A stretch of DNA of 64,000 bases from Candidatus Electronema sp. JM (GTDB lineage Bacteria; Desulfobacterota; Desulfobulbia; Desulfobulbales; Desulfobulbaceae), in assembly GCF_048287415.1 (NCBI RefSeq), contig NZ_JBLWEN010000001.1, positions 88,790 through 152,789 of the forward strand, read 5' to 3'. The notes under the pieces are model-generated. The model did no database searches and was not told where the DNA came from. It saw nothing but the letters and a program-made list of their open reading frames with translations. The translations under genes were made by a program, and so were the position numbers. Shown one piece after another: positions 31,998 to 64,000 of this stretch. The stretch's first letter is position 1. Each line of letters begins with the position of its first letter.

Positions 31998-32025
31998 GTA
32001 GGGGCGAAAAATTTTTCGCCCCTGC
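31998..32025. repeat. REP-like element copy 1: perfect 24-nt palindrome AGGGGCGAAAAATTTTTCGCCCCT inside a 28-mer shared with copy 2
   Basis: GTAGGGGCGAAAAATTTTTCGCCCCTGC is identical at 31998-32025 and 60479-60506. It is flanked by the imperfect inverted repeats TATGACCTGTTGCGTAAC (31943-31960) and CTTATGCAAGAGGTCT (32028-32043). Confidence 0.9.
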
Positions 32026-50480: not shown

Positions 50481-50726
50481 AATGCAATAGTGCTCTCTGA
50501 AATGCAACAGCCCTTGCAGGCCCAAGCAGTCTGACCTTTTCTATGCAATCGGGCCAGACTGTTGCCTCTTGCAGCAGCGGCAGGCTGACAGGCTGAATCC
50601 GCACCTGCGCTTGTCAGCGTATATCAAGGCATTGCTGGCGTTTTTCTCAACTGGCACAGACCTTGCATTAATTAAACCAAGTGTACTCGGAACTTCCGCT
50701 TTTCACCACATACAAGGAGAAAAATC

Positions 50727-51000: not shown

Positions 51001-51341
51001 AAGGGGAGCAAAGCACGTGCTGCAGCTGCTCCGCCAGCAAAAGAAAGCAGCCTGCCACTCTCGCCGCCGCCATCTGACACCAGCGCGGCTCAACTCGGCA
51101 CTCTTCTGTTTTTTTCTCGCAGCATCCTAAAAATACGGCTGTTTCAGCCTGCCGTGTTATTTCAGCGTTCTTCCTGCTGAAATAATGTGTCAGGCTGCTG
51201 TTTTCCTCTTTGCTTCCGCCGCAGAATTGAGTAAATAACTCCCGCTGAAGCTGCGTGCGCAGCACTGTCTGCCAGTCTGCGCCGCAACCTGCTCTGCCTG
51301 CAAACAAATTGAACCACTTCAACATAAAGGAGAGACCAACG

Positions 51342-52265
51342 ATGTACATGTACCTGCCTGTCGCCCTCACCAGCGTGAACTTCCTGCTGGTGTCGGGCAT
51401 CGGATTCACGGTCGGAATGCTGTCCGGCCTTTTCGGCGTGGGAGGTGGCTGGCTGATGACCCCCCTGCTGATGATGATCGGCATTCCGCCCACCATTGCT
51501 GCGGGCACGGACGCGAACCAGATTGTGGCCGCCTCCACCTCCGGCATGTACACCCACTGGCGGCTGGGCAATGTGGACTACAAGATGGGCATCTGTCTGC
51601 TCATCGGCAGCTTCCTCGGCGGCGCTTTCGGCGTGCAGGTCATCAAAGTGCTCACCGCCACTGGCGGCGCGGACTTCCTGATCAAGATCACCTACGTGCT
51701 CATGCTGGGCATAGTCGGCTCCTTCATGTTTGTCGAGAGCCTGACAGCGATGAAGAAGGCCAAGAGCGGCGAGGCCAAGCCTGCCGCGCCAAAGGACAAT
51801 GCCAAGAAGAGCCTGATCATGCGTCTGCCCTTGCAGACCACCTTTGAGAAGTCCGGCGTGTCCTTCTCCGCGCTGGTGCCGGTGGGCCTTGGCGCCTTTG
51901 TCGGCCTGCTGGCGGCGATCATGGGCGTGGGCGGCGGCTTCCTCATGGTGCCGGTGATGATCTACATGCTGCGCATTCCGATGCACGTGGTGGTCGGCAC
52001 CAGCCTGTTCCAGATCCTCTTCACCTGCATTGAGGTGACCTTCCTGCAAGCCTACTACAACCGGACTGTTGACTTCCTCCTCGCCCTGCTCCTCCTGATC
52101 GGCTCGGTCTTCGGCGCACAGATCGGAGCGAAGCTGGGCCGCAAGCTGCACGGCGACCAGCTCAAGATCCTCCTTTCCGTCATCGTCCTGTCCGTGACCG
52201 TGAAGCTGGTTTTCGACTTGATACTCCAGCCTGCCAACCTGCTTTCCTACGCTGGAGGACATTGA
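51342..52265 (+). CDS. TSUP-family (TauE/SafE) anion exporter/permease
   Basis: ATG at 51342 with AAAGGAGAG RBS. The internally duplicated 4-TM halves each carry a G.GGG..M.P.L motif (GLFGVGGGWLMTPLLM and IMGVGGGFLMVPVMIY). Confidence 0.85.
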   Translation: MYMYLPVALTSVNFLLVSGIGFTVGMLSGLFGVGGGWLMTPLLMMIGIPPTIAAGTDANQIVAASTSGMYTHWRLGNVDYKMGICLLIGSFLGGAFGVQVIKVLTATGGADFLIKITYVLMLGIVGSFMFVESLTAMKKAKSGEAKPAAPKDNAKKSLIMRLPLQTTFEKSGVSFSALVPVGLGAFVGLLAAIMGVGGGFLMVPVMIYMLRIPMHVVVGTSLFQILFTCIEVTFLQAYYNRTVDFLLALLLLIGSVFGAQIGAKLGRKLHGDQLKILLSVIVLSVTVKLVFDLILQPANLLSYAGGH

Positions 52266-52267
52266 TC

Positions 52268-53029
52268 ATGCGCATGATGAAAACAGCCCTGCTCGCAGCC
52301 GCCGCGCTCGCGCTCTCCGTTCATGCCGCCGCTGCGGCAAGCATTCAGGCCGCTCCGTCGGACATCAAAATATCCCTGTTCTACCACGGCGCGGCTGTGG
52401 AGGTCAAAGGACAGGCTGCGCCGGGCGAGGACGTGCTGGTCAAAGTCACGCCCTCCGAGCAGCATGAGTTCCACCTCAAATACAAGGGCAAGGCCGCAGG
52501 CATCTTCTGGATGAAGCTCGGCACCTTGGTGTTTGAGAACCTGCCCAGCACCTATCTGCTCGCCTCCTCCGGCCCGGTTGACAAGGTGCTGGACGCGGAG
52601 GCGCGGACTGCCGAGAACGCGGGCTTGGACGCTTTGCAGAAGAAGGCGGTGATCAAGGCGGAGAAAGGCGCGATGCCTGCTGGCGACTGGTTCGGCCAGT
52701 TCCTTGATTTCAAGAAGAAGGAGAAGCTCTACAATGTTGAGGAAGGCACGGTGAAGGTCGGCGCGGACGGCAGCTACAGCTACACGCTGGCCTGGCCGTT
52801 CCAGGCTCCTCCGGGCAGCTACAAGATTGAGGCTGTCACCGCCAAAAACGGCAAGGTGACAGGCCACGCCGAGACAGCGCTCACGGTTGAGCTGACCGGC
52901 ATTGTCGCCCTGCTGGCTAAGATGTCCGCTGACAACCGCACGCTGTACGGCATCATCTCCATTGTCGTGGCTGTCGCCGCCGGTTTCGGCGTGGGCATGA
53001 TCTTCAAGAAGGGCGGCGGCTCGCACTGA
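52268..53029 (+). CDS. TIGR02186/Alph_Pro_TM-like protein (signal peptide + C-terminal TM anchor)
   Basis: Signal peptide MKTALLAAAALALSVHAAAA and C-terminal helix LYGIISIVVAVAAGFGVGMIF. The family call rests on recollection of its usual pairing with a TSUP permease. Start is ambiguous (52268, 52274 or 52277). Confidence 0.5.
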   Translation: MRMMKTALLAAAALALSVHAAAAASIQAAPSDIKISLFYHGAAVEVKGQAAPGEDVLVKVTPSEQHEFHLKYKGKAAGIFWMKLGTLVFENLPSTYLLASSGPVDKVLDAEARTAENAGLDALQKKAVIKAEKGAMPAGDWFGQFLDFKKKEKLYNVEEGTVKVGADGSYSYTLAWPFQAPPGSYKIEAVTAKNGKVTGHAETALTVELTGIVALLAKMSADNRTLYGIISIVVAVAAGFGVGMIFKKGGGSH

Positions 53030-53208: not shown

Positions 53209-53293
53209 TTGCACTATAGTGGAAGCAGCCATTGCACTACAGTGGAAACCTCGGTTGCACCATAGTGCAAACATCGGTTGCACTATAGTGCAA
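53209..53293. repeat. Four 16-bp palindromic sites (TTGCACTATAGTGCAA consensus) on an exact 23-bp period
   Basis: Copies start at 53209 (TTGCACTATAGTGGAA), 53232 (TTGCACTACAGTGGAA), 53255 (TTGCACCATAGTGCAA) and 53278 (TTGCACTATAGTGCAA, a perfect palindrome). Confidence 0.9.
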
Positions 53294-53311
53294 CCGCAAG
53301 CCACAGCCTGC

Positions 53312-53326
53312 TGGCCGCTTGGCTGC
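53312..53326 (+). promoter_or_regulatory. Candidate sigma-54 (-24/-12) promoter
   Basis: TGGCCGCTTGGCTGC fits the TGGC-N8-TGC spacing of the TGGCACG-N4-TTGC consensus. It lies 19 nt downstream of the palindrome array and 87 nt upstream of the ROCO ATG. Confidence 0.3.
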
Positions 53327-53412
53327 GAGGAAGCTGCAAGTATCCGAGCCATGCTCGAAGGCATTGCAGGGGCACCCTTAGCACAACCACACACCCACGG
53401 AGGAACGAGGCG

Positions 53413-55434
53413 ATGAGCAAAGAAGAAGCCTTGCAGCTAATTAAAGAGGCTGCGGAGACAGGGGCAACGTGGCTTAATCTCTTTAATCAAGGATTGAGTG
53501 AAATACCACCTGAGGTGTTTGCGCTTAAGCAGCTCACCTATCTTGGTCTCACTCATAATCGTCTCGCCTTTCTACCGCCAGAACTGTTTGAGATGAAGCA
53601 GCTCACCCAGCTTGAACTCAGCGACAATTGCCTTATCTCATTACCGCCTGAGGTGTTTACACTCAAACAATTAACCTTGCTTAACCTCATTCGCAACCAC
53701 CTTGTCACCCTACCGCCAGAGATTAATCAACTACCCAAGTTAAAAGATATTTGGTCTTTCGATAACCCCCTCGTCTCTCCTCCTTACGAAATAGCTATCA
53801 AAGGCATCTCAGCCATACGCGAATACTTCGCTGAAATGGAAGGCGAGAGCAAGGAGCTGGCCGAGGTCAAGATCATCCTTGTGGGCGAAGGCGCATCGGG
53901 CAAGACCTCATTAGTCAGGCGGCTGCGCGGGGAGCAGTTCGACCCGCACGAGCCAATGACGCACGGCATCAGCATCAACAAATGGCGGCCCGCAAGCGCA
54001 GGCCAGCTGCCCTGCTGCAATGTCTGGGACTTCGGCGGCCAAGAGATCATGCACGCCACGCACCAGTTTTTCCTTTCCCGCCGCAGCCTGTACGTCCTTG
54101 TCCTCGACAACCGGCGCGACGAGCGGCCCGAATACTGGCTGCGCTACATCGAAACCTTCGGCGGCGATTCGCCGGTCTTAGTGGTGCTCAACAAGCAGGA
54201 CATCAATCCCGGCTTTGATCTCAACCGGCCTTTTCTGCACGAGAAATACCCGTTCATCAAGGGCTTTTGGCCGCTTTCCTGCCACAGCGGACAGGGCATG
54301 GCGGCATTCACGCAAGCCTTGCACGAGGAGTTAGACAAGGTGCCCTTGAGCAAGAACCGCTGACCCGCAACCTGGTTCCGGGCAAAGGAAAAGCTGGAGC
54401 AGCTGCACGAGCCGCGCATCAACTACGAACGCTTCGAGCAAATCTGCCTTGAAGCCGGGGTGAAGGGCGCGACCACGCAGCAGGTCTTGGTGGATTTCCT
54501 CAACGATCTGGGCACGGTCATTCACTTTGATCAATTTGAGCTGAACGATCATCACGTCCTTAATCCGCAATGGGTGACAGAGGCGGTGTACAAGATCATC
54601 AACGCGCCGTCGGTGGCACATGCCAAGGGCCTGCTGCACGTGGATGCGCTGGCGGACATCTTAGCAAAGAAGAAGGACAGCGAGCATCGTTATTATCCCG
54701 CTGATCACCATTACATCATCGAGCTGATGAAGAAGTTCGAGCTGTGCTATCAAGTGGGTGAGAGCGAGGTGCTGATACCGCAGCTTTTGGCCGTGCCTGA
54801 GCCTTCCTTCACCTTTTATTACAGCAATGCCCTGCGTTTTGTTCTCCATTATGAGGACTTCCTGCCGCCGTCTGTCATGCCCCGCTTTATTGTCAATCGG
54901 CATAAAGAGATTCAAGGCGAACTGCGCTGGCGCAGCGGCGTTGTCCTGAAGAATGCGCAGCTTGATGCCAGCGCGGTGGTGCGGGCGGATGACGAGGCCC
55001 GCCGCATTCATATCGCTGTGACCGGCAAGGAGCGCAAAATCTTCCTCGCCCTGATTTGGCTCACTCTGCGGGAAATCAATGCGGGCTTTGAAGGCTTGAA
55101 GGTCAGCGAGCGCGTGCCCATGCCGGATGAGCCGGAACGCAGCGTGGATTACGAGACACTTCTCAGCTATGCGGAACAGGGCTTGGAAAAGATTATCCCC
55201 GAAGGCACGAAAAAGGCATATAGTGTGAAAGAGCTGCTGGAACGGGTGCATTTCGCCAATGAAAGCGAGGGCAGGCAGATGCTGGCTTTGGCTGAGGGTG
55301 AACGGAAAGGCGGAGCAGTGAACAAAACAGGCGCCGCATTGAACACCATGTTCAAGCTGGAGCCTTCAGTTTTTGGCGTGGGAATCAACCTCAATGCGAT
55401 GTTTGACGCTCTGCTGAAATGGCAGAGGAAGTAA
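53413..55434 (+). pseudogene. ROCO protein (LRR - Roc GTPase - COR) interrupted by one in-frame TGA at 54361-54363
   Basis: LRRs, then the linker NPLVSPPYEIAIKGISAIREYFAE. Roc G1 GEGASGKTS, G3 WDFGGQE, G4 NKQD. The COR region is (TGA)PATWFRAKEKLEQLHEPRINYERFEQIC...VLVDFLNDLGTVIHF...IIELMKKFELCY. ORFs 53278-54363 and 54460-55434 share a frame, with no other stop between them. Confidence 0.8.
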
Positions 55435-55545: not shown

Positions 55546-55785
55546 ATGAGATGCGTATGCTGCGGAGGGCCGCTCAAAAGCGGCACAGTGACATTCAGCT
55601 ATGAGGATGAGGAAGCATACATCTTTGTTGAGCATGTTCCGGCTGATGTATGCAGTCATTGCGGCGAGAAAGTGTATTCCCCGGCTGTTGCGGACATGCT
55701 GCTGGATATCGCTCAAAGGAAGAGCGAGCCAGTCAAGATGCTCCATATCCCTGTTTATGATTTTGCTCAAACGAAGAGAACATGA
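55546..55785 (+). CDS. YgiT-type (MqsA N-terminal-like) zinc-finger protein, no HTH domain
   Basis: MRCVCCGG...GTVTFSYEDEEAYIFVEHVPADVCSHCGEKVYSP shows the CxxC...CxxC YgiT pattern. The stop overlaps the next start (ATGA). Confidence 0.7.
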   Translation: MRCVCCGGPLKSGTVTFSYEDEEAYIFVEHVPADVCSHCGEKVYSPAVADMLLDIAQRKSEPVKMLHIPVYDFAQTKRT

Positions 55786-57314
55786 CTCCACCTGTCGGCC
55801 TGGCCAAGCACGAGCAGCTGCAAGCGCTTGCAGCTCAATACGGCTGCCCTGTCCTGGAATACAGCGAGAAGGTCAGCGTGCCGTTCCTCATCCTCATTCA
55901 GCTCAATGCGGAGCAGCTGCGGCAGGAAGGCTGGCTGCCGCTACACGTCACGGAAGAGAAGGTGAAAATCCTCACGCACCGCGCCCCGGACGAGGTCGCC
56001 GCCGCTGTCCGCCAGACGCTGGGCGAGGTGGAGCTTGATTTTGTCCTCACTGTGCCGCATGACTTTATCCGGGTCTTTGAGCACAGCTGCGATCTCAACC
56101 CCAGATTCCCCATGCCCGCAGGCCGCACGCCGCTGGCCAGAGTGCGCACTTACTTCGCAGGCCGCCGCTCGCTTTTCGCGCACTACCGCACCTTGATGGC
56201 CAAAAGCCGCACCGATCTGGCCACCGTCCGCACCGCGCTGTCCTTCATGACCATCGCCCTGCTCGGCGTGCGGGTCTTCGGCCTGGGCACGCTGGCAGTG
56301 CTGGAGCTGCCGCTCTTTCTCCTCGGCGCATGGGTCTGCGTTGACAGCATCGTCAGCTACCTGCCTGCCCGCCGGGTGAAAAGCCGTCTGCCCGCCTGCT
56401 CCGGCACCACGCCGACCAACGGCACCACAGTCTTGGCGGCCTCGAACGCGGAGGATTTCCCGCTCTTCCGCCGCCTGCCTGAGACACCGGGCGCAGCCGC
56501 CTTGCGGGCAGGCTGGACCAAGCTCACCCCGCTGATGCGCCGCCGCTTTCTCGCCAGCGACCGCACCGACATGGCCGAGGAGCGGACAACGCTGGCCTGC
56601 CTCCGCACCAAAATGGCGAAGGCGCGCACCGGCCTGGCTTTTGTCCGCACCGGCCTGGCCTTTTTCTCCCTCGGCTTCGGCCTGATGCGGGCCTTTCCCG
56701 AAGTCATTTATTGGCACATCTTAGATGTGAGTTTGATGGCCGCCGGAATCCTCATGGCACTGGAAGGCTTCTTCTGGTATAAAAAAGGTCGGCCTGCGGG
56801 CGAGGAAGGGCAGGCTTCGGTGGAGAAAGCGAACAAGGCGGGCACGATCTGGGATTTCTTCTTCCCGCATGTCGCGGCCTGCCCCAGCCCCAATCCCCTG
56901 CAAACCCCGCCAGTGCGCCGCTCGCACGCGCCGGGCCTCTGGGCGACCACAGGTCTAGCTTTGGAGCGCACCGTCTTAGCTGACCGCCGCAATGTCATGG
57001 CGCGGCTACGGACGGTCATGGCCCGCTCGCGCACGGGCATGGCCTTCATCCGCACCGGCCTGAGCATCCTGCTGATCGGTGTCACCTTCTTGGTCTCCTT
57101 CCCGGATGCGGGCCTGCTCTGGCAGCTGCTCGACTGGTGCCTGATCCTCGGCGGCTCCGTCTTAGTTGCGGACGGCTTTTACTGGACGGTGCCTGCGGAG
57201 CGGAAACGGACGGAGTTCCCCTACTGCTTCGCGGATTTGGAAATAGCTCTGGCGGATTACGGCATTCCCTCCCGCCATTGGCGGAAGACGGTGTTTTATC
57301 GTGCAAGCAAGTAA
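55782..57314 (+). CDS. Membrane protein: T2SSE_N (GspE/MshE N-terminal-like) domain + three DUF202 (YidH-like) modules
   Basis: The N-terminal ~100 aa fit the GspE_N pattern (QYGCPVLEY...LNAEQLRQEGWLPLHV.EEKVKILTHRAPDEVAAAVRQTLG.VELDFVLTVPHDFIRVFE). There are three RTxLAxxRTxLA motifs (SRTDLATVRTAL, ERTTLACLRTKMAKARTGLAFVRTGLA, RNVMARLRTVMARSRTGMAFIRTGL), each followed by paired TM helices. Confidence 0.7.
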   Translation: MTPPVGLAKHEQLQALAAQYGCPVLEYSEKVSVPFLILIQLNAEQLRQEGWLPLHVTEEKVKILTHRAPDEVAAAVRQTLGEVELDFVLTVPHDFIRVFEHSCDLNPRFPMPAGRTPLARVRTYFAGRRSLFAHYRTLMAKSRTDLATVRTALSFMTIALLGVRVFGLGTLAVLELPLFLLGAWVCVDSIVSYLPARRVKSRLPACSGTTPTNGTTVLAASNAEDFPLFRRLPETPGAAALRAGWTKLTPLMRRRFLASDRTDMAEERTTLACLRTKMAKARTGLAFVRTGLAFFSLGFGLMRAFPEVIYWHILDVSLMAAGILMALEGFFWYKKGRPAGEEGQASVEKANKAGTIWDFFFPHVAACPSPNPLQTPPVRRSHAPGLWATTGLALERTVLADRRNVMARLRTVMARSRTGMAFIRTGLSILLIGVTFLVSFPDAGLLWQLLDWCLILGGSVLVADGFYWTVPAERKRTEFPYCFADLEIALADYGIPSRHWRKTVFYRASK

Positions 57315-58539
57315 CGAGACGCTCCTGACGGCCTTGGCCCGGAAGGGCGTTCTGCCGGCAGAGACGCTGGCGGAGATTGAGCAGGCCGCCACGCTGCGCG
57401 GGCTGGCGCCTGCGACGCTGCTGGTCTATGAGTACAATGTGCCGCGCGTCACGCTGCTGGAGGCCTTGGCTGAGATTCACGCCTGCCAGCCGGTGGAGTA
57501 TGATGAGCGGCTGCCCATCCCGCCGGACTTCCTGCCCAAGCTCTCCGGTCCGGCCTTGCTGAAGGAAGGCTGGTTCCCCATCTTCTTGGAGGAGGACGGC
57601 ACTGTGACGGTCGCCGCCTCCAACCCTGCCGCGCCGGGCCTGTGCGCTTCGGTGCGGCAGACGCTCGGATGCAGCAATGTGGTCTGCATGGTCACCCTGC
57701 CGGAGGACGTGCAGTGGTTCATTCAGGATTATCTGCACGCGCCGCCCGGCCTGCTTATCGGCACTGAGCGCACTGGCCTGGCCTATTGGCGCAACACCAT
57801 GGCCCAGTGGCGGACGCTGCTCGCCTGCTGCCGCACCGACATGGCCAAGGCGCGCACAGCACTGGCCTTTGGCCGCTTTGGCCTCTCGCTGATCACGGTC
57901 GCCATGACCTTGCTGCGCCTGACTCCGCCGCGCCTGCCCAAGCCTGCGGCCTTCCTCCTCCTGGCTTTGGGCCTGCTCTGCAACGGACTGGGCGTGGCGG
58001 TGTATCTGCGGATCCGCCGCTCGCAGCTACGCCCGCCCGGCAGCCAGACGATCATGGAAGTGACTGCGGCCACCATCTCGTTCTTGGAGCAGTACCATTT
58101 CCCGGAAGAGCTGAAGGGCAGCCTGCCGCCGCCGCAGACCGGCGCATCCATGCTCGCCCGCCTGGGAGAGCTGCTCGCCGACTACTCGACCATCCTTTTC
58201 CCGGCTCCGCCCAGCCGCGAGCGCACGCATCTGGCCCGTGAGCGCAACGTGCTGGCGGCCCAGCGCACGGTGGCTGCTTGTTACCGCACCATCTATGCCC
58301 GCGCCCGCACTGGGCTGGCCTTCACCCGCACTGGCGTGAGCTTCTTCAGCTTTGGCGTGGGCCTGATCCTCTATTTCGGCCTCGGCCTGAACACCATCTT
58401 TGATGCGCTGCTGATTGCCGCAGGCCTGCTGATGATCACCGACGGCCTGCTCTGGTATCTGCCGGTGCGCAAAGAGCAGGCCGAGCTGCCGCGCTCGCGC
58501 AGCGGTGCCCTGGCTGGCTGGGAGGATGACGACGAATGA
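57301..58539 (+). CDS. Paralogous membrane protein: T2SSE_N-like domain + two DUF202 modules
   Basis: GTG start overlaps the upstream gene by 14 nt. ARKGVLPAETLAEIEQAA...LSGPALLKEGWFPIFLEEDGTVTVAASNPAAPGLCASVRQTLG...MVTLPEDVQWFIQDYL is followed by RNTMAQWRTLLACCRTDMAKARTALAF and ERNVLAAQRTVAACYRTIYARARTGLAFTRTG. Confidence 0.7.
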   Translation: MQASNETLLTALARKGVLPAETLAEIEQAATLRGLAPATLLVYEYNVPRVTLLEALAEIHACQPVEYDERLPIPPDFLPKLSGPALLKEGWFPIFLEEDGTVTVAASNPAAPGLCASVRQTLGCSNVVCMVTLPEDVQWFIQDYLHAPPGLLIGTERTGLAYWRNTMAQWRTLLACCRTDMAKARTALAFGRFGLSLITVAMTLLRLTPPRLPKPAAFLLLALGLLCNGLGVAVYLRIRRSQLRPPGSQTIMEVTAATISFLEQYHFPEELKGSLPPPQTGASMLARLGELLADYSTILFPAPPSRERTHLARERNVLAAQRTVAACYRTIYARARTGLAFTRTGVSFFSFGVGLILYFGLGLNTIFDALLIAAGLLMITDGLLWYLPVRKEQAELPRSRSGALAGWEDDDE

Positions 58540-59942
58540 AGATCCTGCACCGCATCTGCCTGTCTGACGCGATCAACATCTGCCTTTTGGTGCTGATCGG
58601 CCTCTTTGCGATCCACTCCTTTGACGAGCTGCTGGCCAAGTTCCGCTTCACCACGATTGCTGACGGCCTCAACGCGGCCTTTTTGGAAATGCGCATCGCC
58701 GAGAAGAACTATCTTCTTTACGGCGACAAGGAGGCCCTGAACTCCATTTCCACCCGCATTGCTGAGACTGTCCCGGTCTTGGAGAAAGAGCGGGAGAACA
58801 TCGAGCAGGTCACGGGCGGCAGCGACTACAAGTACCTTGTCCAGCTGCTGGCCGAGTACCGCAGCGATGTCCTTGCCCTGCGAGACGGGCATGGCGCGGA
58901 CAAGCGGGTGCGGGAGTCCGGCCACAGCCTGCGCGCCTTCTCCGAACATCTCACCGCCATGGAGCGGGACAAGGTGGCGCAGATCATCGAGCGCTCGAAA
59001 GCCGTGCTCCGTCATTCCTTCTGGGCGGTGATCTTCTTCGCCTTTGTCTTCACCCAGTGGAATGCGCGGAGCATCCGCCGTTCCCTTCGGCAGGTGGAGC
59101 AGCTGACACGCTCGATTGCCAAGGGCGAGTTCTCCCTTATCCAAGAGAAGCCAGCGGCAGATGAGCTGGGTTCCATCGTCCAGGCGATCAGCACGATGTC
59201 GGACGAACTGAACCGGCGCGAAGAGGAGATTGTCCGCTCCAAGCGCCTGGCTTCCATTGGTGTGTTGGTGGCCGGTGTGGCCCATGAGCTGAACAATCCG
59301 CTCAACAACATCTCCATGATTGCGCAGACCTTCACAGAGCTGCACGACAAGCTGAACAGCGGGCAGCAGCTGGAGTTCATGGCCCAGATTGATGAGGAGA
59401 CCGAACGCCTGCGGGTGACAATCAAGAACCTGCTTGATTTCTCCAAGCCCAAGGAGAAGGAAATGGAGCCGCGCTGCCTGAACGAGGTGGCGCAGAAATG
59501 CATTGGCTTAGTGCAGAACATGCTGACCATCGGCAACATCCGCACCAAGCTGGCCTTGGCCGAAAACCTGCCCCAGCTCTGCTTGGACGAGCACCAGATT
59601 CAGCAGGTGCTGGTGAACATGCTGATCAACGCCATTCAGGCCATGCCGCCCGGCGGCGTGCTCAGTGTCAGCACCCGCCTGCTGCCTGAGCAGCACATGG
59701 CGGAAATAGAAATCAGCGACACCGGCAAGGGCATTCCGCCGGAGCTGATCAACCACATCTTCGACCCCTTCTTCACGACTAAAGACGAGGGCGGCACCGG
59801 CCTTGGTCTCTGGGTCAGCTACGGAATCATCAAAAACCACGGCGGGGAGATTCACGTCAAGAGCACAGTGAACAAGGGCACGACCTTCACTGTCACCCTG
59901 CCGACAGACTTGGAGCGATGTCAGCTATGCACAGCATCATGA
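58536..59942 (+). CDS. Sensor histidine kinase (TM, HAMP, HisKA, HATPase)
   Basis: ATGA overlap with the upstream gene. H-box VAGVAHELNNPLNN, N-box NMLINAIQAM, and G-boxes DTGKGIP and GTGLGLWV. Confidence 0.85.
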   Translation: MKILHRICLSDAINICLLVLIGLFAIHSFDELLAKFRFTTIADGLNAAFLEMRIAEKNYLLYGDKEALNSISTRIAETVPVLEKERENIEQVTGGSDYKYLVQLLAEYRSDVLALRDGHGADKRVRESGHSLRAFSEHLTAMERDKVAQIIERSKAVLRHSFWAVIFFAFVFTQWNARSIRRSLRQVEQLTRSIAKGEFSLIQEKPAADELGSIVQAISTMSDELNRREEEIVRSKRLASIGVLVAGVAHELNNPLNNISMIAQTFTELHDKLNSGQQLEFMAQIDEETERLRVTIKNLLDFSKPKEKEMEPRCLNEVAQKCIGLVQNMLTIGNIRTKLALAENLPQLCLDEHQIQQVLVNMLINAIQAMPPGGVLSVSTRLLPEQHMAEIEISDTGKGIPPELINHIFDPFFTTKDEGGTGLGLWVSYGIIKNHGGEIHVKSTVNKGTTFTVTLPTDLERCQLCTAS

Positions 59943-60307
59943 TTATTGACGACGAACGGATAGTGGGCGACATGGCCAAACTGTCCCTCAGTCAGGATGG
60001 CTACGATGTGGAAACGTTTCTCGACGGCGAGAGCGCGCTGAGGCGGCTCAAGGAGAAGAGCTTCGCTGTCGTGGTCACGGATTTGAAGATGAAAGGCGTG
60101 GACGGGCTGGAAGTCTTGCGCAACGTCAAGCAGCTTTATCCGGCAACAGCGGTGATCATGATCACTGCCTTCGCCAATCTTGATGTGGCCATCGAGGCTC
60201 TGCGCGACGATGTTTTTGATTTCTTCCCCAAGCCGGTGAAGATCAAAGACCTGAAAGCGTCGGTCAAGCGGGCAGTGGAAAAGGGAAACATGCCGCAGGC
60301 AGGCTGA
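59927..60307 (+). CDS. Single-domain response regulator (CheY-like REC)
   Basis: IMIIDDE...VVVTDLKMKGVDGLEVL...VIMITAF......A......DFFPKP. Start is ambiguous (59918, 59927 or 59939); 59939 would give an ATGA overlap with the kinase stop. Confidence 0.85.
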   Translation: MHSIMIIDDERIVGDMAKLSLSQDGYDVETFLDGESALRRLKEKSFAVVVTDLKMKGVDGLEVLRNVKQLYPATAVIMITAFANLDVAIEALRDDVFDFFPKPVKIKDLKASVKRAVEKGNMPQAG

Positions 60308-60478: not shown

Positions 60479-60506
60479 GTAGGGGCGAAAAATTTTTCGC
60501 CCCTGC
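60479..60506. repeat. REP-like element copy 2 (identical 28-mer containing the 24-nt perfect palindrome)
   Basis: GTAGGGGCGAAAAATTTTTCGCCCCTGC is identical to 31998-32025. Confidence 0.9.
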
Positions 60507-60542: not shown

Positions 60543-60674
60543 ATGAACAAAGAAGAAGCCTTGCGGCGGATTAAACACGTGGAGGAGACAGGAGCAACGA
60601 GGCTTGATCTGAGCTTTCAAAGATTGACTGAACTGCCGCCTGAACTCTTTCAAATAAAAAATGAACCAACTTGA
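60543..60674 (+). pseudogene. Truncated duplicate of the ROCO/LRR gene 5' end (43 codons)
   Basis: GGAGGAACGAGGCGATGA(A/G)CAAAGAAGAAGCCTTGC is shared with 53399-53434, with one mismatch in 36 nt. The product MNKEEALRRIKHVEETGATRLDLSFQRLTELPPELFQIKNEPT* parallels the ROCO N-terminus, then terminates where the PpsA-like ORF begins. Confidence 0.7.
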
Positions 60675-63261
60675 TAGTTCTGCCGACAAAGGAGCAACTC
60701 TCCGCAGCCTGTGGACTGCCTTGCTCAAGCTGCTGCCGGGCCGCAGCGCGCCGCCAGTCAGCCCGCGTCTGGTCTTTGAACGCTTTCAGAAGGTGCTGGC
60801 CAGCAACAATCAGGCTTTGGAGATCATTGCCGATCTGGGCGAGAAGCTGGGCGGCGACTACCTCTTTGACATGCGCTATGTTGAGTCCTCGGTTGAGGAG
60901 CTGATTGCGGCGGTGCACAGCTCAGTGCTGGCGGTGAATGAGCTGTGCGGCGACCGTCACGCCAAGCTGCATCAGGTGCATGAGCGTCTGAGCGAGGACT
61001 TGCGCCTGACCCTGGCTGGCCGTGAAGACCGCGAGGGGCCGCTGATCTTCACGCTGGATGAGATCCGCCCGCGCAACTGGGCCTTGGTCGGCGGCAAGGC
61101 CGCGCACTTGGCGGTGATGCGGCATGATCCGCAGCTGCGCGTGCCGGACGGCTTTGTCATCACCGCCCGCGCCTACAACGATCTGATTGACCATAACGGC
61201 CTGCGGCAGCAGCTCACTGCTTTTGAGGAGCTGATGTCCGCCACTGAGCCGGATGCCGACCTGCTGGAGGAGCAGCGCAGCTTGATTGAACAGGCCGTGC
61301 TCGCTGCCGCGCCGCCGCCGGGCCTGTTGGACGCGCTTGCCCAAGCAGCAGGCCGTCTGCCGCAGACCAGCAAGCCGCTCTTCTTGGCGGTGCGCAGCTC
61401 GGCGCAGGAGGAAGACATGGACTTCTCCTTTGCCGGCCAGTTCACGTCGGTGCTCAACGTGCCTGCCCAGCCGGATGCGCTCTTTGCTGCTGCCCGCGAG
61501 GTGATGGCCAGTCTGTTCTGCGCCGGGGCTGTGTCGTACCGCCGCCGCGTCTTCCCGGATGAAGGCAAGATGGCTATTGCCGTGGTCTGCCAGCGGATGG
61601 TGGATTCCCGCAGCAGCGGCATCGTCTTTTCGGTGGACACCATGCAGCTCGCTCACGACACGATGGTGGTGGTGGCCGCGTGGGGCCAAGGCGAGGCGGT
61701 GGTGGAAGGCGGCACAGCCACTGACACCTTCCAGCTCCACAAGGGGCCGCCGCTGCGCATCGCTGCCCGGCAGGTGGCGGACAAAGAGCAAGGCCTCTTT
61801 GCCGGAGCCGAGAGCGGCCTGACCAGCCGGGCCATCGCCAAGGAGCTGCGCACTGCGTCCTGTCTCTCAGACGATGAGCTGCTCCAGCTTGGCAGCACAG
61901 CCCTGCACTTGGAAACGCTCTTCAAGCGGCCGCAGGACATCGAATGGGCCTTTGACAGCAGCGGCCAGCTCTACATTCTCCAAGCCCGGCCCTTGGTGCT
62001 CAACACCCCGGCGCGGGAAAAGGCCCTGCCAGTCCGTGTGGAGCAGCACGAGGTCATCTGCGCCGGACAAGGCAAAGTGGCCCAGCAAGGCATTGCCGCC
62101 GGGCCAGTGCATTTGGTCAATTTTGCTGAGGAGACCGGCGAGTTCACGGAAGGCTCAGTGCTGGTCACGCACCACGATTCCTCCCGCCTCGTCACCTACA
62201 TCCAGCGGGCCGCCGGTGTCATCACCGAGACCGGCACGCCGGTCAGCCACATGGCCACCATCTGCCGCGAGTTCCAAGTGCCCTGCTTGGTCAATGTGGG
62301 CAGCATCCTCGGCAAGGTGCGCGAAGGCGAGCTGATCACCGTGGACGCGGAAGACCGCCGCATCTATCGAGGCTTAGTTGACGAGCTGCTGGTCTATCGC
62401 GCCACCTCCTGCATCAACCTGATGTCCAGCCGCGAGTTCCGCCTGCTCCGCCGCATTCTCAAGAAGGTCTCTGAGCTGCATCTGGTGGATCCGATGATGC
62501 AGGACTTCAGCATAGACGGCTGCCGCACCTATCACGACATTCTCCGCTTCTCGCATGAGTCAGCAGTGCAGGAGATGGTCAACCTTGGCCGCGATGAGCG
62601 GCGGCTGATCAAGGGCAGCATCGTCCGGCCGATGAAGCTGCCCATTCCCACCGGCATTCTGGTGATTGACATCGGCGGCGGCCTTGCCTCTGACGCGCCT
62701 GAGCGCGATGTGCCGTTTCAGGCCATTGCTTCCGTGCCCTTCCGTGCTGTGCTGCAAGGGATGCTCTTCCCGGAGATATGGCACAACAATCCTATGCCGG
62801 TAGGCATCCGCGACCTGATGAACAGCATGTTCAGTCCGATCCGCGAAGAGGCGGCGGAGCAGTACAGCGGCCACAACATCGCCATCATCGGCGGAAATTA
62901 TGTCAATCTTTGCTTTCGTCTGGGCTATCATTATAATATTATAGACGCGCACTGCGGCGAGGCGGAGCAGAACAACCATCTTTACTACCGCTTTCTGGGC
63001 GGCGTGACGGACATGACCAAACGCTCGCGCAGGGCGGCGATGATCGCGCAGATACTCAAGGAGTTCGAGTTCAATGTCCAGACCAAAGGCGACCTGGTCA
63101 CAGCCCGGCTCTCGCGCCTGCCGCAGCGGGAGGCCGAGCGCGCGCTGGACATCCTTGGCAGACTGGTGGGCTACACCCGCCAGCTGGATGTGCGCATGGA
63201 GAGCGACAATGATCCGGGCAGATATGCCGAAGCGTTCCTGAACGGGGAATACAGGGTTTGA
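60661..63261 (+). CDS. PpsA-like protein: PEP synthase-type ATP-grasp + swivelling phospho-His domain + ~300-aa non-canonical C-terminal domain
   Basis: NWALVGGKAAHLAVM, LAVRSSAQEEDMDFSFAGQFTSVLNV, MAIAVVCQRMVDSRSSGIVFSVD, QDIEWAFDSSGQLYILQARPL, and the mobile domain AGVITETGTPVSHMATICREFQVPCLV. The C-terminal region lacks the PEP-utilizer TIM-barrel motifs I know (no GTNDLTQ-like segment). Confidence 0.75.
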   Translation: MNQLDSSADKGATLRSLWTALLKLLPGRSAPPVSPRLVFERFQKVLASNNQALEIIADLGEKLGGDYLFDMRYVESSVEELIAAVHSSVLAVNELCGDRHAKLHQVHERLSEDLRLTLAGREDREGPLIFTLDEIRPRNWALVGGKAAHLAVMRHDPQLRVPDGFVITARAYNDLIDHNGLRQQLTAFEELMSATEPDADLLEEQRSLIEQAVLAAAPPPGLLDALAQAAGRLPQTSKPLFLAVRSSAQEEDMDFSFAGQFTSVLNVPAQPDALFAAAREVMASLFCAGAVSYRRRVFPDEGKMAIAVVCQRMVDSRSSGIVFSVDTMQLAHDTMVVVAAWGQGEAVVEGGTATDTFQLHKGPPLRIAARQVADKEQGLFAGAESGLTSRAIAKELRTASCLSDDELLQLGSTALHLETLFKRPQDIEWAFDSSGQLYILQARPLVLNTPAREKALPVRVEQHEVICAGQGKVAQQGIAAGPVHLVNFAEETGEFTEGSVLVTHHDSSRLVTYIQRAAGVITETGTPVSHMATICREFQVPCLVNVGSILGKVREGELITVDAEDRRIYRGLVDELLVYRATSCINLMSSREFRLLRRILKKVSELHLVDPMMQDFSIDGCRTYHDILRFSHESAVQEMVNLGRDERRLIKGSIVRPMKLPIPTGILVIDIGGGLASDAPERDVPFQAIASVPFRAVLQGMLFPEIWHNNPMPVGIRDLMNSMFSPIREEAAEQYSGHNIAIIGGNYVNLCFRLGYHYNIIDAHCGEAEQNNHLYYRFLGGVTDMTKRSRRAAMIAQILKEFEFNVQTKGDLVTARLSRLPQREAERALDILGRLVGYTRQLDVRMESDNDPGRYAEAFLNGEYRV

Positions 63262-63273
63262 CAAGGAGACGGA

Positions 63274-63717
63274 ATGCAGCTTACAACCACGGCCAGCGAC
63301 AGCTCTGACCTGCTCATTATTGATGACGAGCCGATCATCGGCAAGCGGCTGCAACACACCTTCAGCAAAATTGGACTGAACGCGCAGGCCTTCACCAGCC
63401 CGCAGGCGGCGATGGAGCGTATCAGCAGTGCGCCGGTCCATGTGGTGATCACCGATTTCCGCATGAAGGGCATGGACGGCCTGGAGGTCTTCCGCCAGGT
63501 CAAAAAATTGAGTCCGCGCAGCAAGGTGATCATCATCAGCGGCTACGCCAGCCCGGAGACGGTGGACATCGCTTTTCAGGAAGGGGTGTTCGATTTTCTC
63601 GTCAAGCCGTTCCGCTTGGACGAACTGAAGGAGGCGGTGCGTCGGGCGCTGGAGGAGATCAGCAGGGAGCGGAAAGCAGAAGCGTCAGCCGCGCCATCTC
63701 CAGTGTATGGCATGTAG
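63274..63717 (+). CDS. Single-domain response regulator (CheY-like REC)
   Basis: RBS AAGGAGA. LLIIDDE...HVVITDFRMKGMDGLEVF...VIIISGY......A...G..DFLVKPF. Confidence 0.85.
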   Translation: MQLTTTASDSSDLLIIDDEPIIGKRLQHTFSKIGLNAQAFTSPQAAMERISSAPVHVVITDFRMKGMDGLEVFRQVKKLSPRSKVIIISGYASPETVDIAFQEGVFDFLVKPFRLDELKEAVRRALEEISRERKAEASAAPSPVYGM

Positions 63718-63753: not shown

Positions 63754-63771
63754 AGGGGCGAAAAATTTTTC
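63754..63771. repeat. REP-like element copy 3, truncated after the left arm and loop
   Basis: AGGGGCGAAAAATTTTTC matches the first 18 nt of the 24-nt palindrome and then diverges (ACACCTTATATT...). The upstream motif CCCTGCGTTGAG (63725-63736) is shared with copy 1 (31963-31974). Confidence 0.75.
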
Positions 63772-63860
63772 ACACCTTATATTAGAGCCTGTTACTGTTA
63801 ACACTAGACCTCTTGCGTAAGTCACAACTTATTGATAAAAGAAGCTATGACCTGTTAGCA

Positions 63861-64000
63861 TTATTTGATTGCAATCACGATCAAGGCAAAAACGACAAAC
63901 CCGATGAACATGACATCCAGTTTGTCAAACCGGGTGAAGATGCGGCGGAATCCCTTCAGCCTTCTGAACAGCCGCCCGACTTCATTCCGTTTTTCATACA
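63861..64000 (-). mobile_element. IS5-family (DDE_Tnp_1-type) transposase gene, 3' end only (continues beyond the window)
   Basis: The minus-strand translation YEKRNEVGRLFRRLKGFRRIFTRFDKLDVMFIGFVVFALIVIAIK* matches the conserved Y..RN.vER.F..LK.fRRi.tRydK C-terminal signature of IS5-family transposases. Confidence 0.7.

What the first reader, a model, noticed from the sequence alone, without database searches (positions are those of the whole stretch)
60661..63717. PpsA-like ATP-grasp/His-swivel protein with a novel C-terminal domain, bracketed by stand-alone response regulators
The 866-aa protein has PEP-synthase-type grasp motifs and a mobile His domain (TGTPVSHMATICRE). Its last ~300 aa replace the PEP/pyruvate TIM barrel (LPIPTGILVIDIGGGL..., NYVNLCFRLGYHYNIIDAHCGE..NNHLYYRFLGGVTD). 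It is preceded by HK + REC and followed 12 nt later by another CheY-like REC. A phospho-His swivel domain next to two Asp-receiver proteins raises a speculative possibility. An ATP-grasp-driven phosphorelay, or a REC-regulated phosphotransferase, might operate alongside the classical kinase.
Basis: inference. Interest (0 to 1): 0.6.

Follow-up and report, generated by a model that had tools for sequence, protein, structure and literature searches.

The report
PpsA-like dikinase tied to receiver proteins
This gene is not a PEP synthase: it belongs to a large, uncharacterised family of ATP-driven phosphate-transfer enzymes in which the pyruvate-binding end is replaced by an unknown domain, and which sulfur-cycling bacteria almost always encode beside small signalling 'receiver' proteins and a sulfur-anion transporter.

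The parts
50652..50667 (+). sigma-54-type -24/-12 promoter consensus (TGGCACAGACCTTGCA) upstream of the TauE operon
   Evidence: This is the only zero-mismatch match in the 64-kb window. Type-A loci encode a sigma-54 activator RR just upstream of TauE. Function is inferred.
51255..52265 (+). TauE/SafE-family anion permease
   Evidence: Pfam PF01925, 3.7e-49, full-length match. TauE was found within 10 kb of PpsL in 59 of 85 loci.
52262..53029 (+). Alph_Pro_TM membrane protein, the constant partner of TauE
   Evidence: Pfam PF09608, 2.9e-44. Its start overlaps the TauE stop. Present in 62 of 85 loci.
55782..57314 (+). MshEN + 2x DUF202 membrane protein (first of a pair)
   Evidence: Pfam DUF202 2.3e-12, MshEN 1e-4. 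The pair recurs in 37 of 85 loci.
57301..58539 (+). MshEN + 2x DUF202 membrane protein (second of the pair)
   Evidence: Pfam DUF202 1.3e-11, MshEN 4.4e-8. It overlaps both neighbouring genes, as expected within an operon.
58536..59942 (+). Sensor histidine kinase (TM - periplasmic helical region - TM - HAMP - HisKA - HATPase)
   Evidence: Pfam HAMP, HisKA and HATPase_c. The H-box AHELNNPL is visible in the sequence.
59918..60307 (+). REC-only response regulator, 'upstream partner' type (REC_up)
   Evidence: Pfam Response_reg 1.8e-26. The D12/D13/D57/T87/K109 equivalents are present. It is 74-78% identical to the REC directly upstream of PpsL in Nitrospirota loci.
60661..61050 (+). PpsL N-terminal helical segment (aa 1-130), part of the family-specific N+C module
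   Evidence: No Pfam match. Homologous to the N-terminus of mini proteins that lack the grasp and His domains (hhalign probability 96.4%, E 1.3e-9).
61051..62055 (+). PpsL ATP-grasp nucleotide-binding domain (aa 131-465)
   Evidence: PPDK_N 4e-74. 27 positions are invariant across 116 family members, including K146, R245, S246, S247, E251, D252, E428, Q441 and R443.
62056..62382 (+). PpsL swivel phospho-His domain (aa 466-574); catalytic His530 = codon 62248-62250
   Evidence: PEP-utilizers 4e-17. G525, H530, R536 and E537 are 100% conserved in 116 orthologues and paralogues.
62383..63261 (+). PpsL C-terminal domain (aa 575-866) of unknown fold family; presumed acceptor/partner site
63274..63717 (+). 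REC-only response regulator, 'downstream partner' type (REC_down)
   Evidence: Response_reg 5.3e-26. The acceptor residues are intact. It is orthologous to the REC that follows PpsL in type-A loci. The same position is fused to PpsL in P0230, P0242 and P0252.

Best explanation
The 866-aa protein (here called PpsL) is an active ATP-dependent dikinase of the PEP-utilising superfamily. It is not a PEP synthase. By analogy with PpsA, PPDK and RPH, the ATP-grasp domain would pyrophosphorylate His530 on the swivel domain. The swivel would then carry the retained phosphoryl group to a family-specific module made of the N-terminal helices plus the C-terminal domain, which replaces the pyruvate barrel. 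There an acceptor other than pyruvate would be phosphorylated, most likely a hydroxyl group on a protein or a metabolite. The stand-alone REC proteins encoded beside the gene, phosphorylated by the cluster's histidine kinase, bind this module and switch the enzyme. The whole unit (HK, REC, PpsL) controls or supports a TauE/Alph_Pro_TM sulfur-oxyanion transporter, probably for thiosulfate or sulfite. Shown here: the domain architecture, the conserved catalytic residues, the non-barrel C-domain, the conserved and sometimes fused REC partner, and the conserved transporter neighbourhood. Inferred: the phosphotransfer chemistry, the direction REC to PpsL, the nature of the acceptor, and the transporter link.
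For: Architecture and intact catalytic residues. The C-domain is not a barrel and has no known relative. A REC-only gene is adjacent on the same strand in 75 of 85 loci. About 3 of the exceptions are genuine and the rest are truncated contigs or frameshifts. The conservative background rate is about 14%. All REC partners keep D12, D13, D57, T/S87 and K109. Rosetta-stone fusions exist: PpsL::REC in P0230, P0242 and P0252, in the context TauE-AlphTM-PpsL::REC-REC. Mini proteins with only N+C, and with all invariant C-domain residues, are still followed by a REC and lie next to TauE-AlphTM. This shows that REC and transporter coupling follow the N+C module. An HK lies within 10 kb in 23 of 26 fully flanked loci, so an ordinary phosphodonor for REC is available. 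A DSP/PTP phosphatase is fused in P0299 and is a neighbouring gene in Desulfovibrio, which points to a phosphoester product that gets reversed. TauE and Alph_Pro_TM are in the window and in most loci. Genetics (PMC4001038): transposon mutants of the TauE, REC-only and PPDK_N/mobile-domain genes of the Desulfovibrio nitrate cluster share one phenotype (nitrate resistance), the DvH phosphatase mutant does not, and G20 mutants are mildly sick on thiosulfate. Proteomics (PMC13490349): TauE, its TM partner and a 'PEP synthase' listed with the next locus tag all rise under thiosulfate disproportionation.
Against: No biochemistry exists for any family member. REC sits C-terminal to PpsL in gene order and in the fusions. 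That is the topology of hybrid kinases, where REC is the acceptor, and not of typical REC-output regulators. Three fully flanked loci have no HK within 10 kb. Membership of DVU0246 itself in the C-domain family was not verified; it is inferred from identical synteny in L088. In G20 the phosphatase mutant has the same sign of fitness as the others. The Dissulfuribacter paper gives two different locus tags for the 'PEP synthase'. In the window's own lineage the upstream HK-REC pair is separated from PpsL by a scar, or by four inserted genes in L005.
Confidence: 0.5

Rival explanations
1. ATP-grasp-driven phosphorelay. PpsL autophosphorylates His530 from ATP and passes the phosphoryl group directly to Asp57 of the downstream REC, which docks on the N+C module. 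PpsL would then be a kinase for a two-component receiver that does not depend on a histidine kinase. The upstream REC and the HK would modulate it.
For: REC adjacency is conserved, and all phospho-acceptor residues are intact. REC is fused at the C-terminus of PpsL, the same order as kinase core then REC in hybrid histidine kinases (own knowledge). Loci L007, L013 and L083 have PpsL plus REC but no HK within 10 kb. In the window's lineage the type-A HK that normally follows the downstream REC is absent. REC domains can autophosphorylate from phospho-imidazole-type donors (established knowledge).
Against: An HK is present in 23 of 26 fully flanked loci. Mini proteins that lack both the grasp and His domains keep the REC partner, so REC pairing does not require a phospho-His donor. 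The alternative partner in the same position is a Cys-based DSP/PTP phosphatase, which acts on phosphoesters and not on acyl phosphates. In type-B loci the REC lies upstream of PpsL, the regulator-like order. To my knowledge no swivel-His to Asp transfer has been described.
Confidence: 0.17
2. Metabolic small-molecule dikinase. Like rifampin phosphotransferase or HpeHI/phenylphosphate synthase, PpsL phosphorylates a low-molecular-weight compound handled by the adjacent transporter, such as a sulfur oxyanion or an organosulfur metabolite, as a catabolic or trapping step. REC only tunes its activity.
For: The superfamily repeatedly swaps acceptor domains for small molecules (PMC12167813). The C-domain has a dense invariant Cys/His/Asp/Arg constellation suited to binding an anion. 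The gene is tightly linked to TauE/AlphTM or YeeE/TusA transporters. Thiosulfate-related phenotypes and induction have been reported.
Against: Three paralogues per genome with one REC and one HK, together with MshEN/DUF202 partners, look more like a signalling unit than a pathway. No further catabolic enzymes are conserved in the cluster. Mini proteins without the kinase module keep all 'active-site' residues, so that site does something that does not need His~P. A DSP phosphatase partner would make a futile cycle for a catabolic step.
Confidence: 0.2
3. Ordinary, merely divergent PEP synthase (pyruvate, water dikinase), as most database annotations say. On this reading the REC genes are neighbours by chance.
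For: The best NCBIfam, Pfam and PDB matches are PEP synthases. Sources name homologues 'pyruvate, water dikinase'.
Against: The matches cover only model positions 5-467 of 798, and the scores are far below the cut-offs (312 vs 598; 297.7 vs 739.75). There is no PEP-utilizers_C even at E<=10. Profile alignments to PpsA, PPDK and EI stop where their barrel starts. The fold model is not a barrel and matches no barrel. REC adjacency is 75 of 85 against a background of about 14%.
Confidence: 0.01
4. The N+C module is a sensor or scaffold, not an acceptor site. It binds a ligand or the transporter, and the grasp/His cassette serves only as an ATP-consuming switch through autophosphorylation, with no external phospho-acceptor.
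Against: In every characterised relative the swivel His delivers phosphate to a second substrate site. His530 and the grasp residues are 100% conserved in all paralogues. A dedicated phosphatase partner implies a stable phosphorylated product.
Confidence: 0.1

Closest known systems
PEP synthase (PpsA; pyruvate, water dikinase) and PPDK
   Same: The domain order is ATP-grasp then swivel-His then third domain. The grasp domain is 30-35% identical and the catalytic His motif is conserved. A dikinase mechanism is presumed.
   Different: The PEP/pyruvate TIM barrel is absent and is replaced by an unrelated 290-aa domain. There is an extra ~125-aa N-terminal helical segment. The window copy has no regulatory Thr at His-2 (V528). 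The gene is embedded in a two-component/transporter cluster.
Rifampin phosphotransferase (RPH), PigC/RedH, and the two-component small-molecule dikinases HpeHI/CreHI/phenylphosphate synthase
   Same: These are grasp plus swivel-His enzymes in which the pyruvate barrel has been exchanged for another acceptor-binding domain (PMC12167813). The grasp domain matches at 1e-56 to 1e-60.
   Different: The domain order differs: in RPH the acceptor domain lies between the grasp and a C-terminal His domain. The C-domain shows no sequence or fold similarity to the RIF-binding domain. To my knowledge those enzymes have no REC partner.
Desulfovibrio 'nitrate cluster' protein DVU0246/Dde_0604 with DVU0247 (REC), DVU0248 (HK), DVU0251 (TauE), DVU0245 (DSP phosphatase) (Korte et al. 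2014, PMC4001038)
   Same: It is a PPDK_N plus mobile-domain protein with no annotated barrel, next to a REC-only regulator, an HK and a TauE permease. A family member (P0299, C-domain E 1e-114) sits in an identically ordered PtxB-HK-REC-PpsL-phosphatase locus.
   Different: DVU0246 is shorter (744 aa), and its C-domain homology could not be checked here. The window has no PtxB-like or DSP phosphatase gene. It carries a second, downstream REC and MshEN/DUF202 genes instead.
Glucan, water dikinase (GWD) with the DSP-family glucan phosphatases SEX4/laforin (own knowledge)
   Same: A PpsA-type dikinase is paired with a dual-specificity-type phosphatase that reverses its product. The PpsL::DSP fusion and the weak lectin-like C-terminal extensions in P0306 and P0336 echo this logic.
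   Different: No carbohydrate-binding module or DSP gene occurs in the window. The domain order differs. The lectin hits lie at or below the Pfam thresholds.
PTS Enzyme I and hybrid histidine kinases (phospho-His to protein transfer)
   Same: EI uses the same swivel-His domain to phosphorylate a protein (HPr). Hybrid kinases carry a C-terminal REC that accepts from their own His, which is the order seen in PpsL::REC fusions.
   Different: EI is charged by PEP through a barrel that is absent here, and it transfers to a His, not an Asp. PpsL has no HisKA/DHp or HPt domain.

Membership tests
PEP synthase (TIGR01418 / NF005057) | ATP-grasp nucleotide-binding domain (PPDK_N) | tested here: met
   PF01326, 4e-74, aa 142-460.
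PEP synthase (TIGR01418 / NF005057) | Swivel domain with catalytic His | tested here: met
   PF00391, 4e-17. His530 is invariant in 116 sequences.
PEP synthase (TIGR01418 / NF005057) | C-terminal PEP/pyruvate-binding TIM barrel (PF02896) | tested here: not met
PEP synthase (TIGR01418 / NF005057) | Score above the curated equivalog cut-off | tested here: not met
   312 vs 598 bits and 297.7 vs 739.75 bits; only model positions 5-467 of 798 are aligned.
Rifampin phosphotransferase / PigC-type dikinases | Order grasp - acceptor domain - C-terminal swivel His; score above cut-off | tested here: not met
   The His domain is central here. NF041857 scores 202 vs 999 and PigC 197 vs 1300. RPH chains match only through the grasp and His parts.
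Unnamed 'PpsL' family (N-helical + grasp + swivel-His + C-domain) | C-domain with invariant C621, H625-D626, R629, D670-x-GGG, Y747, H757, R777-F-x-GG, R788, R791, R840-x-x-D843 | tested here: met
   The window residue equals the consensus at all 28 near-invariant C-domain columns.
Unnamed 'PpsL' family (N-helical + grasp + swivel-His + C-domain) | REC-only gene directly adjacent on the same strand | tested here: met
   The window has one on each side. This feature is present in 75 of 85 loci.
Unnamed 'PpsL' family (N-helical + grasp + swivel-His + C-domain) | TauE + Alph_Pro_TM pair in the neighbourhood | tested here: met
   Window 51255-53029. Present in 59-62 of 85 loci.
Desulfovibrio nitrate cluster (DVU0245-0251) | PPDK_N/mobile-domain protein + REC-only RR + HK + TauE permease in one cluster | tested here: met
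   All four are present in the window. The published composition is in PMC4001038.
Desulfovibrio nitrate cluster (DVU0245-0251) | Orthology of the C-domain to DVU0246/Dde_0604 | not testable with these tools
   No named Desulfovibrio sequence could be retrieved. This is inferred from identical gene order around family member P0299.
Desulfovibrio nitrate cluster (DVU0245-0251) | DSP/PTP phosphatase and PtxB-like binding protein in the cluster | tested here: not met
   No homologue in the window or in the 85 closest loci.
Two-component phosphorelay donor (HK / HPt) | HisKA/DHp or HPt domain carrying the donor His | tested here: not met
   Pfam finds only PPDK_N and PEP-utilizers. The N-terminal helices have no conserved His.
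Two-component phosphorelay donor (HK / HPt) | Phosphotransfer from His to the REC aspartate | not testable with these tools
   This needs biochemistry. The REC partners do keep all acceptor residues.

The most novel reading that the evidence does not exclude
PpsL is a new class of kinase for two-component receivers. An ATP-grasp/swivel-His dikinase would charge the downstream stand-alone (or fused) REC on its aspartate without a histidine kinase, using the N+C module as the REC docking site. The upstream REC and the conventional HK would act as its regulators. This would be a second, mechanistically distinct entry point into His-Asp signalling, widespread in sulfur-cycling bacteria.
Probability: 0.15. 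Interest if true: 0.9.

Novelty: new variant of a known kind. Interest (0 to 1): 0.62.

Why it matters
The family is large and is routinely annotated as PEP synthase. That annotation has probably already misled the interpretation of at least one proteome: a thiosulfate-induced 'PEP synthase' apparently encoded next to TauE was read as gluconeogenesis. Recognising the family as a REC-coupled dikinase with an unknown acceptor domain gives a concrete biochemical handle on the unexplained Desulfovibrio nitrate-resistance/thiosulfate cluster. It does the same for the poorly understood TauE/Alph_Pro_TM transporters in sulfate reducers, sulfur disproportionators and relatives of cable bacteria. It also defines a new domain (N+C) with an invariant Cys/His/Asp/Arg site and no structural relative. 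And it sets up a clean experiment to decide between a REC-regulated enzyme and a new route of receiver phosphorylation.

Tried and rejected
(1) A divergent PEP/pyruvate barrel was rejected at the Pfam, profile and fold levels.

(2) An RPH-like rifampin-binding domain was rejected: there is no sequence or fold match and the domain order differs.

(5) I tried to retrieve DVU0246 or a named Desulfovibrio homologue using the C-domain of P0299. Only unnamed fragments came back.

(6) The plasmid collection has no copy.

(7) The structure of a natural mini (N+C) protein has N-terminal helices at pLDDT 30-50, so N/C packing cannot be interpreted.

(8) The sigma-70 promoter and terminator scan around the gene was no better than shuffles.

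(9) The loose-threshold counts of the representative search are inflated by His-domain columns in the profile. Only the count at E<=1e-30 was used.

(10) The RS-1 magnetosome tauE paper mentions no dikinase or REC link and was set aside.
Full report
OBSERVATION. The ORF at 60661..63261 (+) encodes 866 aa. Pfam assigns PPDK_N (ATP-grasp) to aa 142-460 (4e-74) and the PEP-utilizers mobile domain to aa 495-564 (4e-17), and assigns nothing else. NCBIfam PEP-synthase models align only to their first ~467 of ~798 positions and score far below their cut-offs: 312 vs 598 bits and 297.7 vs 739.75 bits. RPH and PigC models also fall far below threshold. Residues 1-~125 and 575-866 have no Pfam match even at E<=10. 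The C-terminal 292 aa have no PDB sequence match (best E 0.52).

IT IS A LARGE FAMILY, NOT A ONE-OFF. The C-domain alone retrieves 72 proteins, almost always downstream of PF00391/PF01326. The full-length protein retrieves more than 100 homologues of about 860 aa at 50-98% identity from Desulfobulbales and other Thermodesulfobacteriota, including the isolate Thiovibrio sp. JS02. The closest are Desulfobulbaceae UBA5173 (91%) and Candidatus Electronema halotolerans (77%), with further members in Nitrospirota/Thermodesulfovibrionales, Syntrophobacterales, Desulfobaccales and others. An exhaustive profile search finds 952 clusters (50% identity) at E<=1e-30. The looser counts are inflated by His-domain columns in the profile. 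No copy occurs on plasmids. Across 116 full-length orthologues and paralogues, His530 with G525, R536 and E537 is 100% conserved, as are the ATP-grasp residues. The C-domain is the most conserved region, with 28 near-invariant positions rich in Cys, His, Asp and Arg: C621, H625, D626, R629, H632, E633, D670, G674, Y747, H757, D762, N772, R777, F778, G780, G781, R788, R791, D811, R840 and D843. The window copy deviates at only two conserved columns, and conservatively. These look like active dikinases with a functional third site.

THE NEIGHBOURHOOD. I built HMMs from genes that Pfam had already identified and scanned 85 loci, the window included. Two arrangements recur. Type A (Desulfobulbia and others) reads: sigma-54 RR, a small ORF, TauE, Alph_Pro_TM, PpsL, REC, HK, PpsL2, PpsL3, then two MshEN/DUF202 genes. 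Type B (Nitrospirota) reads: TauE, Alph_Pro_TM, a gap, two MshEN/DUF202 genes, HK, REC, PpsL. The paralogues share all four regions. A REC-only ORF lies within 450 nt on the same strand of a PpsL in 75 of 85 loci. Of the ten exceptions, five are contigs cut at the relevant end and two are frameshifted genes with the REC in place, which leaves about three genuine exceptions. A deliberately conservative background from the same loci is about 14%. The binomial P is about 6e-53, ignoring phylogenetic non-independence. All REC partners retain the D12, D13, D57, T/S87 and K109 equivalents. The window's upstream REC is orthologous to the type-B partner, at 74-78% identity even to Nitrospirota copies. 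Its downstream REC is orthologous to the type-A partner. The window in fact carries the whole conserved set: TauE (51255-52265, 3.7e-49), Alph_Pro_TM (52262-53029, 2.9e-44), two MshEN/DUF202 proteins, HK, REC, PpsL and REC. The only perfect sigma-54 consensus in the window lies upstream of TauE. In the closest long relative, L005 (74% identity), four unrelated genes separate the HK-REC pair from PpsL, while the downstream REC stays attached. In the window, the same junction holds a 43-codon remnant of an LRR-Roc gene.

FUSIONS AND MINI PROTEINS. P0230 (987 aa) is PPDK_N + swivel-His + C-domain + Response_reg. P0242 and P0252 end the same way. The P0230 locus reads TauE, Alph_Pro_TM, PpsL::REC, REC. 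P0299 (1252 aa) is PpsL fused to a DSP/PTP-type phosphatase. Its locus reads YeeE-type Sulf_transp, TusA, a gap, a PtxB-like binding protein, a PAS/HAMP HK, REC, PpsL::DSP. P0306 and P0336 carry weak lectin-like extensions. Conversely, P0056, P0060, P0061 and P0065 (about 392 aa) have no grasp or His domain. They consist of an N-terminal helical segment homologous to PpsL aa 27-123 (hhalign 96.4%, E 1.3e-9) joined directly to the C-domain, with all invariant residues kept. P0061 is still followed immediately by a REC gene and lies beside TauE and Alph_Pro_TM. PpsL is thus an N+C module with the grasp/His cassette inserted, and the REC and transporter coupling belong to the N+C module. A model of the mini protein reproduced the C-domain topology, but the N-terminal helices are at low confidence, so N/C packing is left open.

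LITERATURE. Korte et al. 2014 (PMC4001038) found that transposon insertions in a 'nitrate cluster' of D. alaskensis G20 (Dde_0597-0605) and D. vulgaris (DVU0245-0251) confer nitrate resistance. The cluster encodes a TauE permease, a small hypothetical protein, a PtxB-like protein, an HK, a REC-only regulator, a PPDK_N/mobile-domain protein and a DSP phosphatase. In DvH the TauE, REC and dikinase-like mutants are resistant, whereas the phosphatase mutant is not. G20 mutants are mildly sick on thiosulfate. The authors proposed a leaky thiosulfate transporter and called the genes poorly annotated. The L088 locus around family member P0299 has the same gene order, which ties that cluster to this family. 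I could not retrieve DVU0246 itself to test its C-domain. A 2026 proteome of Dissulfuribacter thermophilus (PMC13490349) reports TauE (DITHS69_1990), its co-occurring TM protein (1989) and a 'PEP synthase' listed as 1988 as more abundant under thiosulfate disproportionation, and reads the latter as gluconeogenesis. The text of that paper gives a different tag (1161), so the adjacency is probable, not certain. PMC12167813 summarises how grasp/swivel-His dikinases exchange acceptor domains (RPH, HpeHI, CreHI, phenylphosphate synthase).

MECHANISM. What is shown: an intact grasp plus swivel-His machine; a conserved, non-barrel third module; a conserved and sometimes fused REC partner with intact acceptor residues; and a conserved sulfur-anion transporter neighbourhood. 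What is inferred: ATP charges His530, as in all characterised relatives. The swivel delivers phosphate to the N+C module, where a non-pyruvate acceptor is phosphorylated. REC, charged by the cluster's HK, binds N+C and switches the enzyme. The output controls or supports TauE/Alph_Pro_TM-mediated thiosulfate/sulfite transport. Three lines favour a REC-regulated enzyme over a swivel-His to Asp phosphorelay. An HK is nearby in 23 of 26 fully flanked loci. Mini proteins without a His domain still pair with REC. The alternative partner is a Cys-based phosphatase, which implies a phosphoester product. Against that reading, REC sits C-terminal to PpsL, the topology of hybrid kinases, and a few loci lack any HK nearby. 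I put the best explanation at 0.5, a metabolic small-molecule dikinase at 0.2, the phosphorelay at 0.17, a sensor or switch without an external acceptor at 0.1, and a true PEP synthase at 0.01.

VERDICT. The gene is a member of a widespread but biochemically uncharacterised branch of the PEP-utilising dikinase superfamily, with a third domain that has no known relative and an obligate association with receiver proteins. This is a new variant of a known kind. Interest is 0.62: the family is large, it is mis-annotated, it is linked to unexplained phenotypes in model sulfate reducers, and one in vitro phosphotransfer experiment would decide between an ordinary and a truly new signalling mechanism.

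Noticed in passing
window 35194-39444 (+): A second, unrelated dikinase-like ORF of 1416 aa. PPDK_N lies at aa 965-1205 (2e-27) and the swivel-His domain at aa 1319-1398 (3.4e-16), the extreme C-terminus. Residues 1-960 have no Pfam match. The order X - grasp - His is a different architecture from PpsL.
   Followed up: partly
window 53278-54363 and 54460-55434 (+): LRR + Roc GTPase and COR-A/COR-B are two separate ORFs here but one gene in the related locus L005. This is probably a frameshifted or split Roc-COR gene, inserted between Alph_Pro_TM and the MshEN/DUF202 genes.
   Followed up: partly
window 60543-60674 (+): A 43-codon remnant (MNKEEALRRIKHVEETGATRLDLSFQRLTELPPELFQIK...) resembles the N-terminus of the LRR-Roc ORF at 53278 and overlaps the PpsL start codon in another frame. 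It is a rearrangement scar at the spot where L005 has four inserted genes (NB-ARC/TPR, YhcG and others).
   Followed up: partly
window 32001-32022, 60482-60503, 63755-63776: The perfect 22-nt palindrome GGGGCGAAAAATTTTTCGCCCC occurs three times (0.07 expected by chance), and the third copy is slightly degenerate. Two copies bracket the PpsL-REC pair. It looks like a REP-like intergenic element or a terminator hairpin.
   Followed up: partly
window 63826-64000 (-): An ORF running off the window end finishes with ...YEKRNEVGRLFRRLKGFRRIFTRFDKLDVMFIGFVVFALIVIAIK*. From my own knowledge this looks like the C-terminus of an IS5-family DDE transposase. In this genome an IS element therefore follows the downstream REC, where L005 has murG.
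   Followed up: no
window 50652-50667 (+), with HK 49026-50525 (-): The only perfect sigma-54 -24/-12 consensus in the window lies between a divergently transcribed histidine kinase and TauE. The small conserved ORF that precedes TauE in type-A loci was not detected here.
   Followed up: partly
window 59918-60307 vs loci L040-L082: The upstream REC is 74-78% identical between this Desulfobulbaceae-like genome and Nitrospirota genomes, far more than the 43-48% of the adjacent PpsL C-domain. That indicates either unusually strong constraint or horizontal transfer of the MshEN/DUF202-HK-REC cassette.
   Followed up: no
window 55782-58539 (+) and 37 of 85 loci: Paired membrane proteins with an N-terminal MshEN-type domain (a known c-di-GMP-binding fold in MshE) and two DUF202 repeats always precede or follow the HK-REC/PpsL genes. 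Their role is unknown, as is any link to c-di-GMP.
   Followed up: no
L088 1465-3393: In the PpsL::DSP-phosphatase locus, the transporter partner is a YeeE/YedE-type Sulf_transp protein with TusA and an Se_S_carrier protein instead of TauE. This is a YTD-like sulfur-trafficking cluster, and it strengthens the sulfur-anion link.
   Followed up: no
PMC13490349, Table 2 vs section 3.2.1: The same UniProt accession (A0A1B9F8F1, 'PEP synthase') is given locus tag DITHS69_1988 in the table and DITHS69_1161 in the text. If 1988 is right, the protein is probably a PpsL mis-read as a gluconeogenic enzyme.
   Followed up: partly
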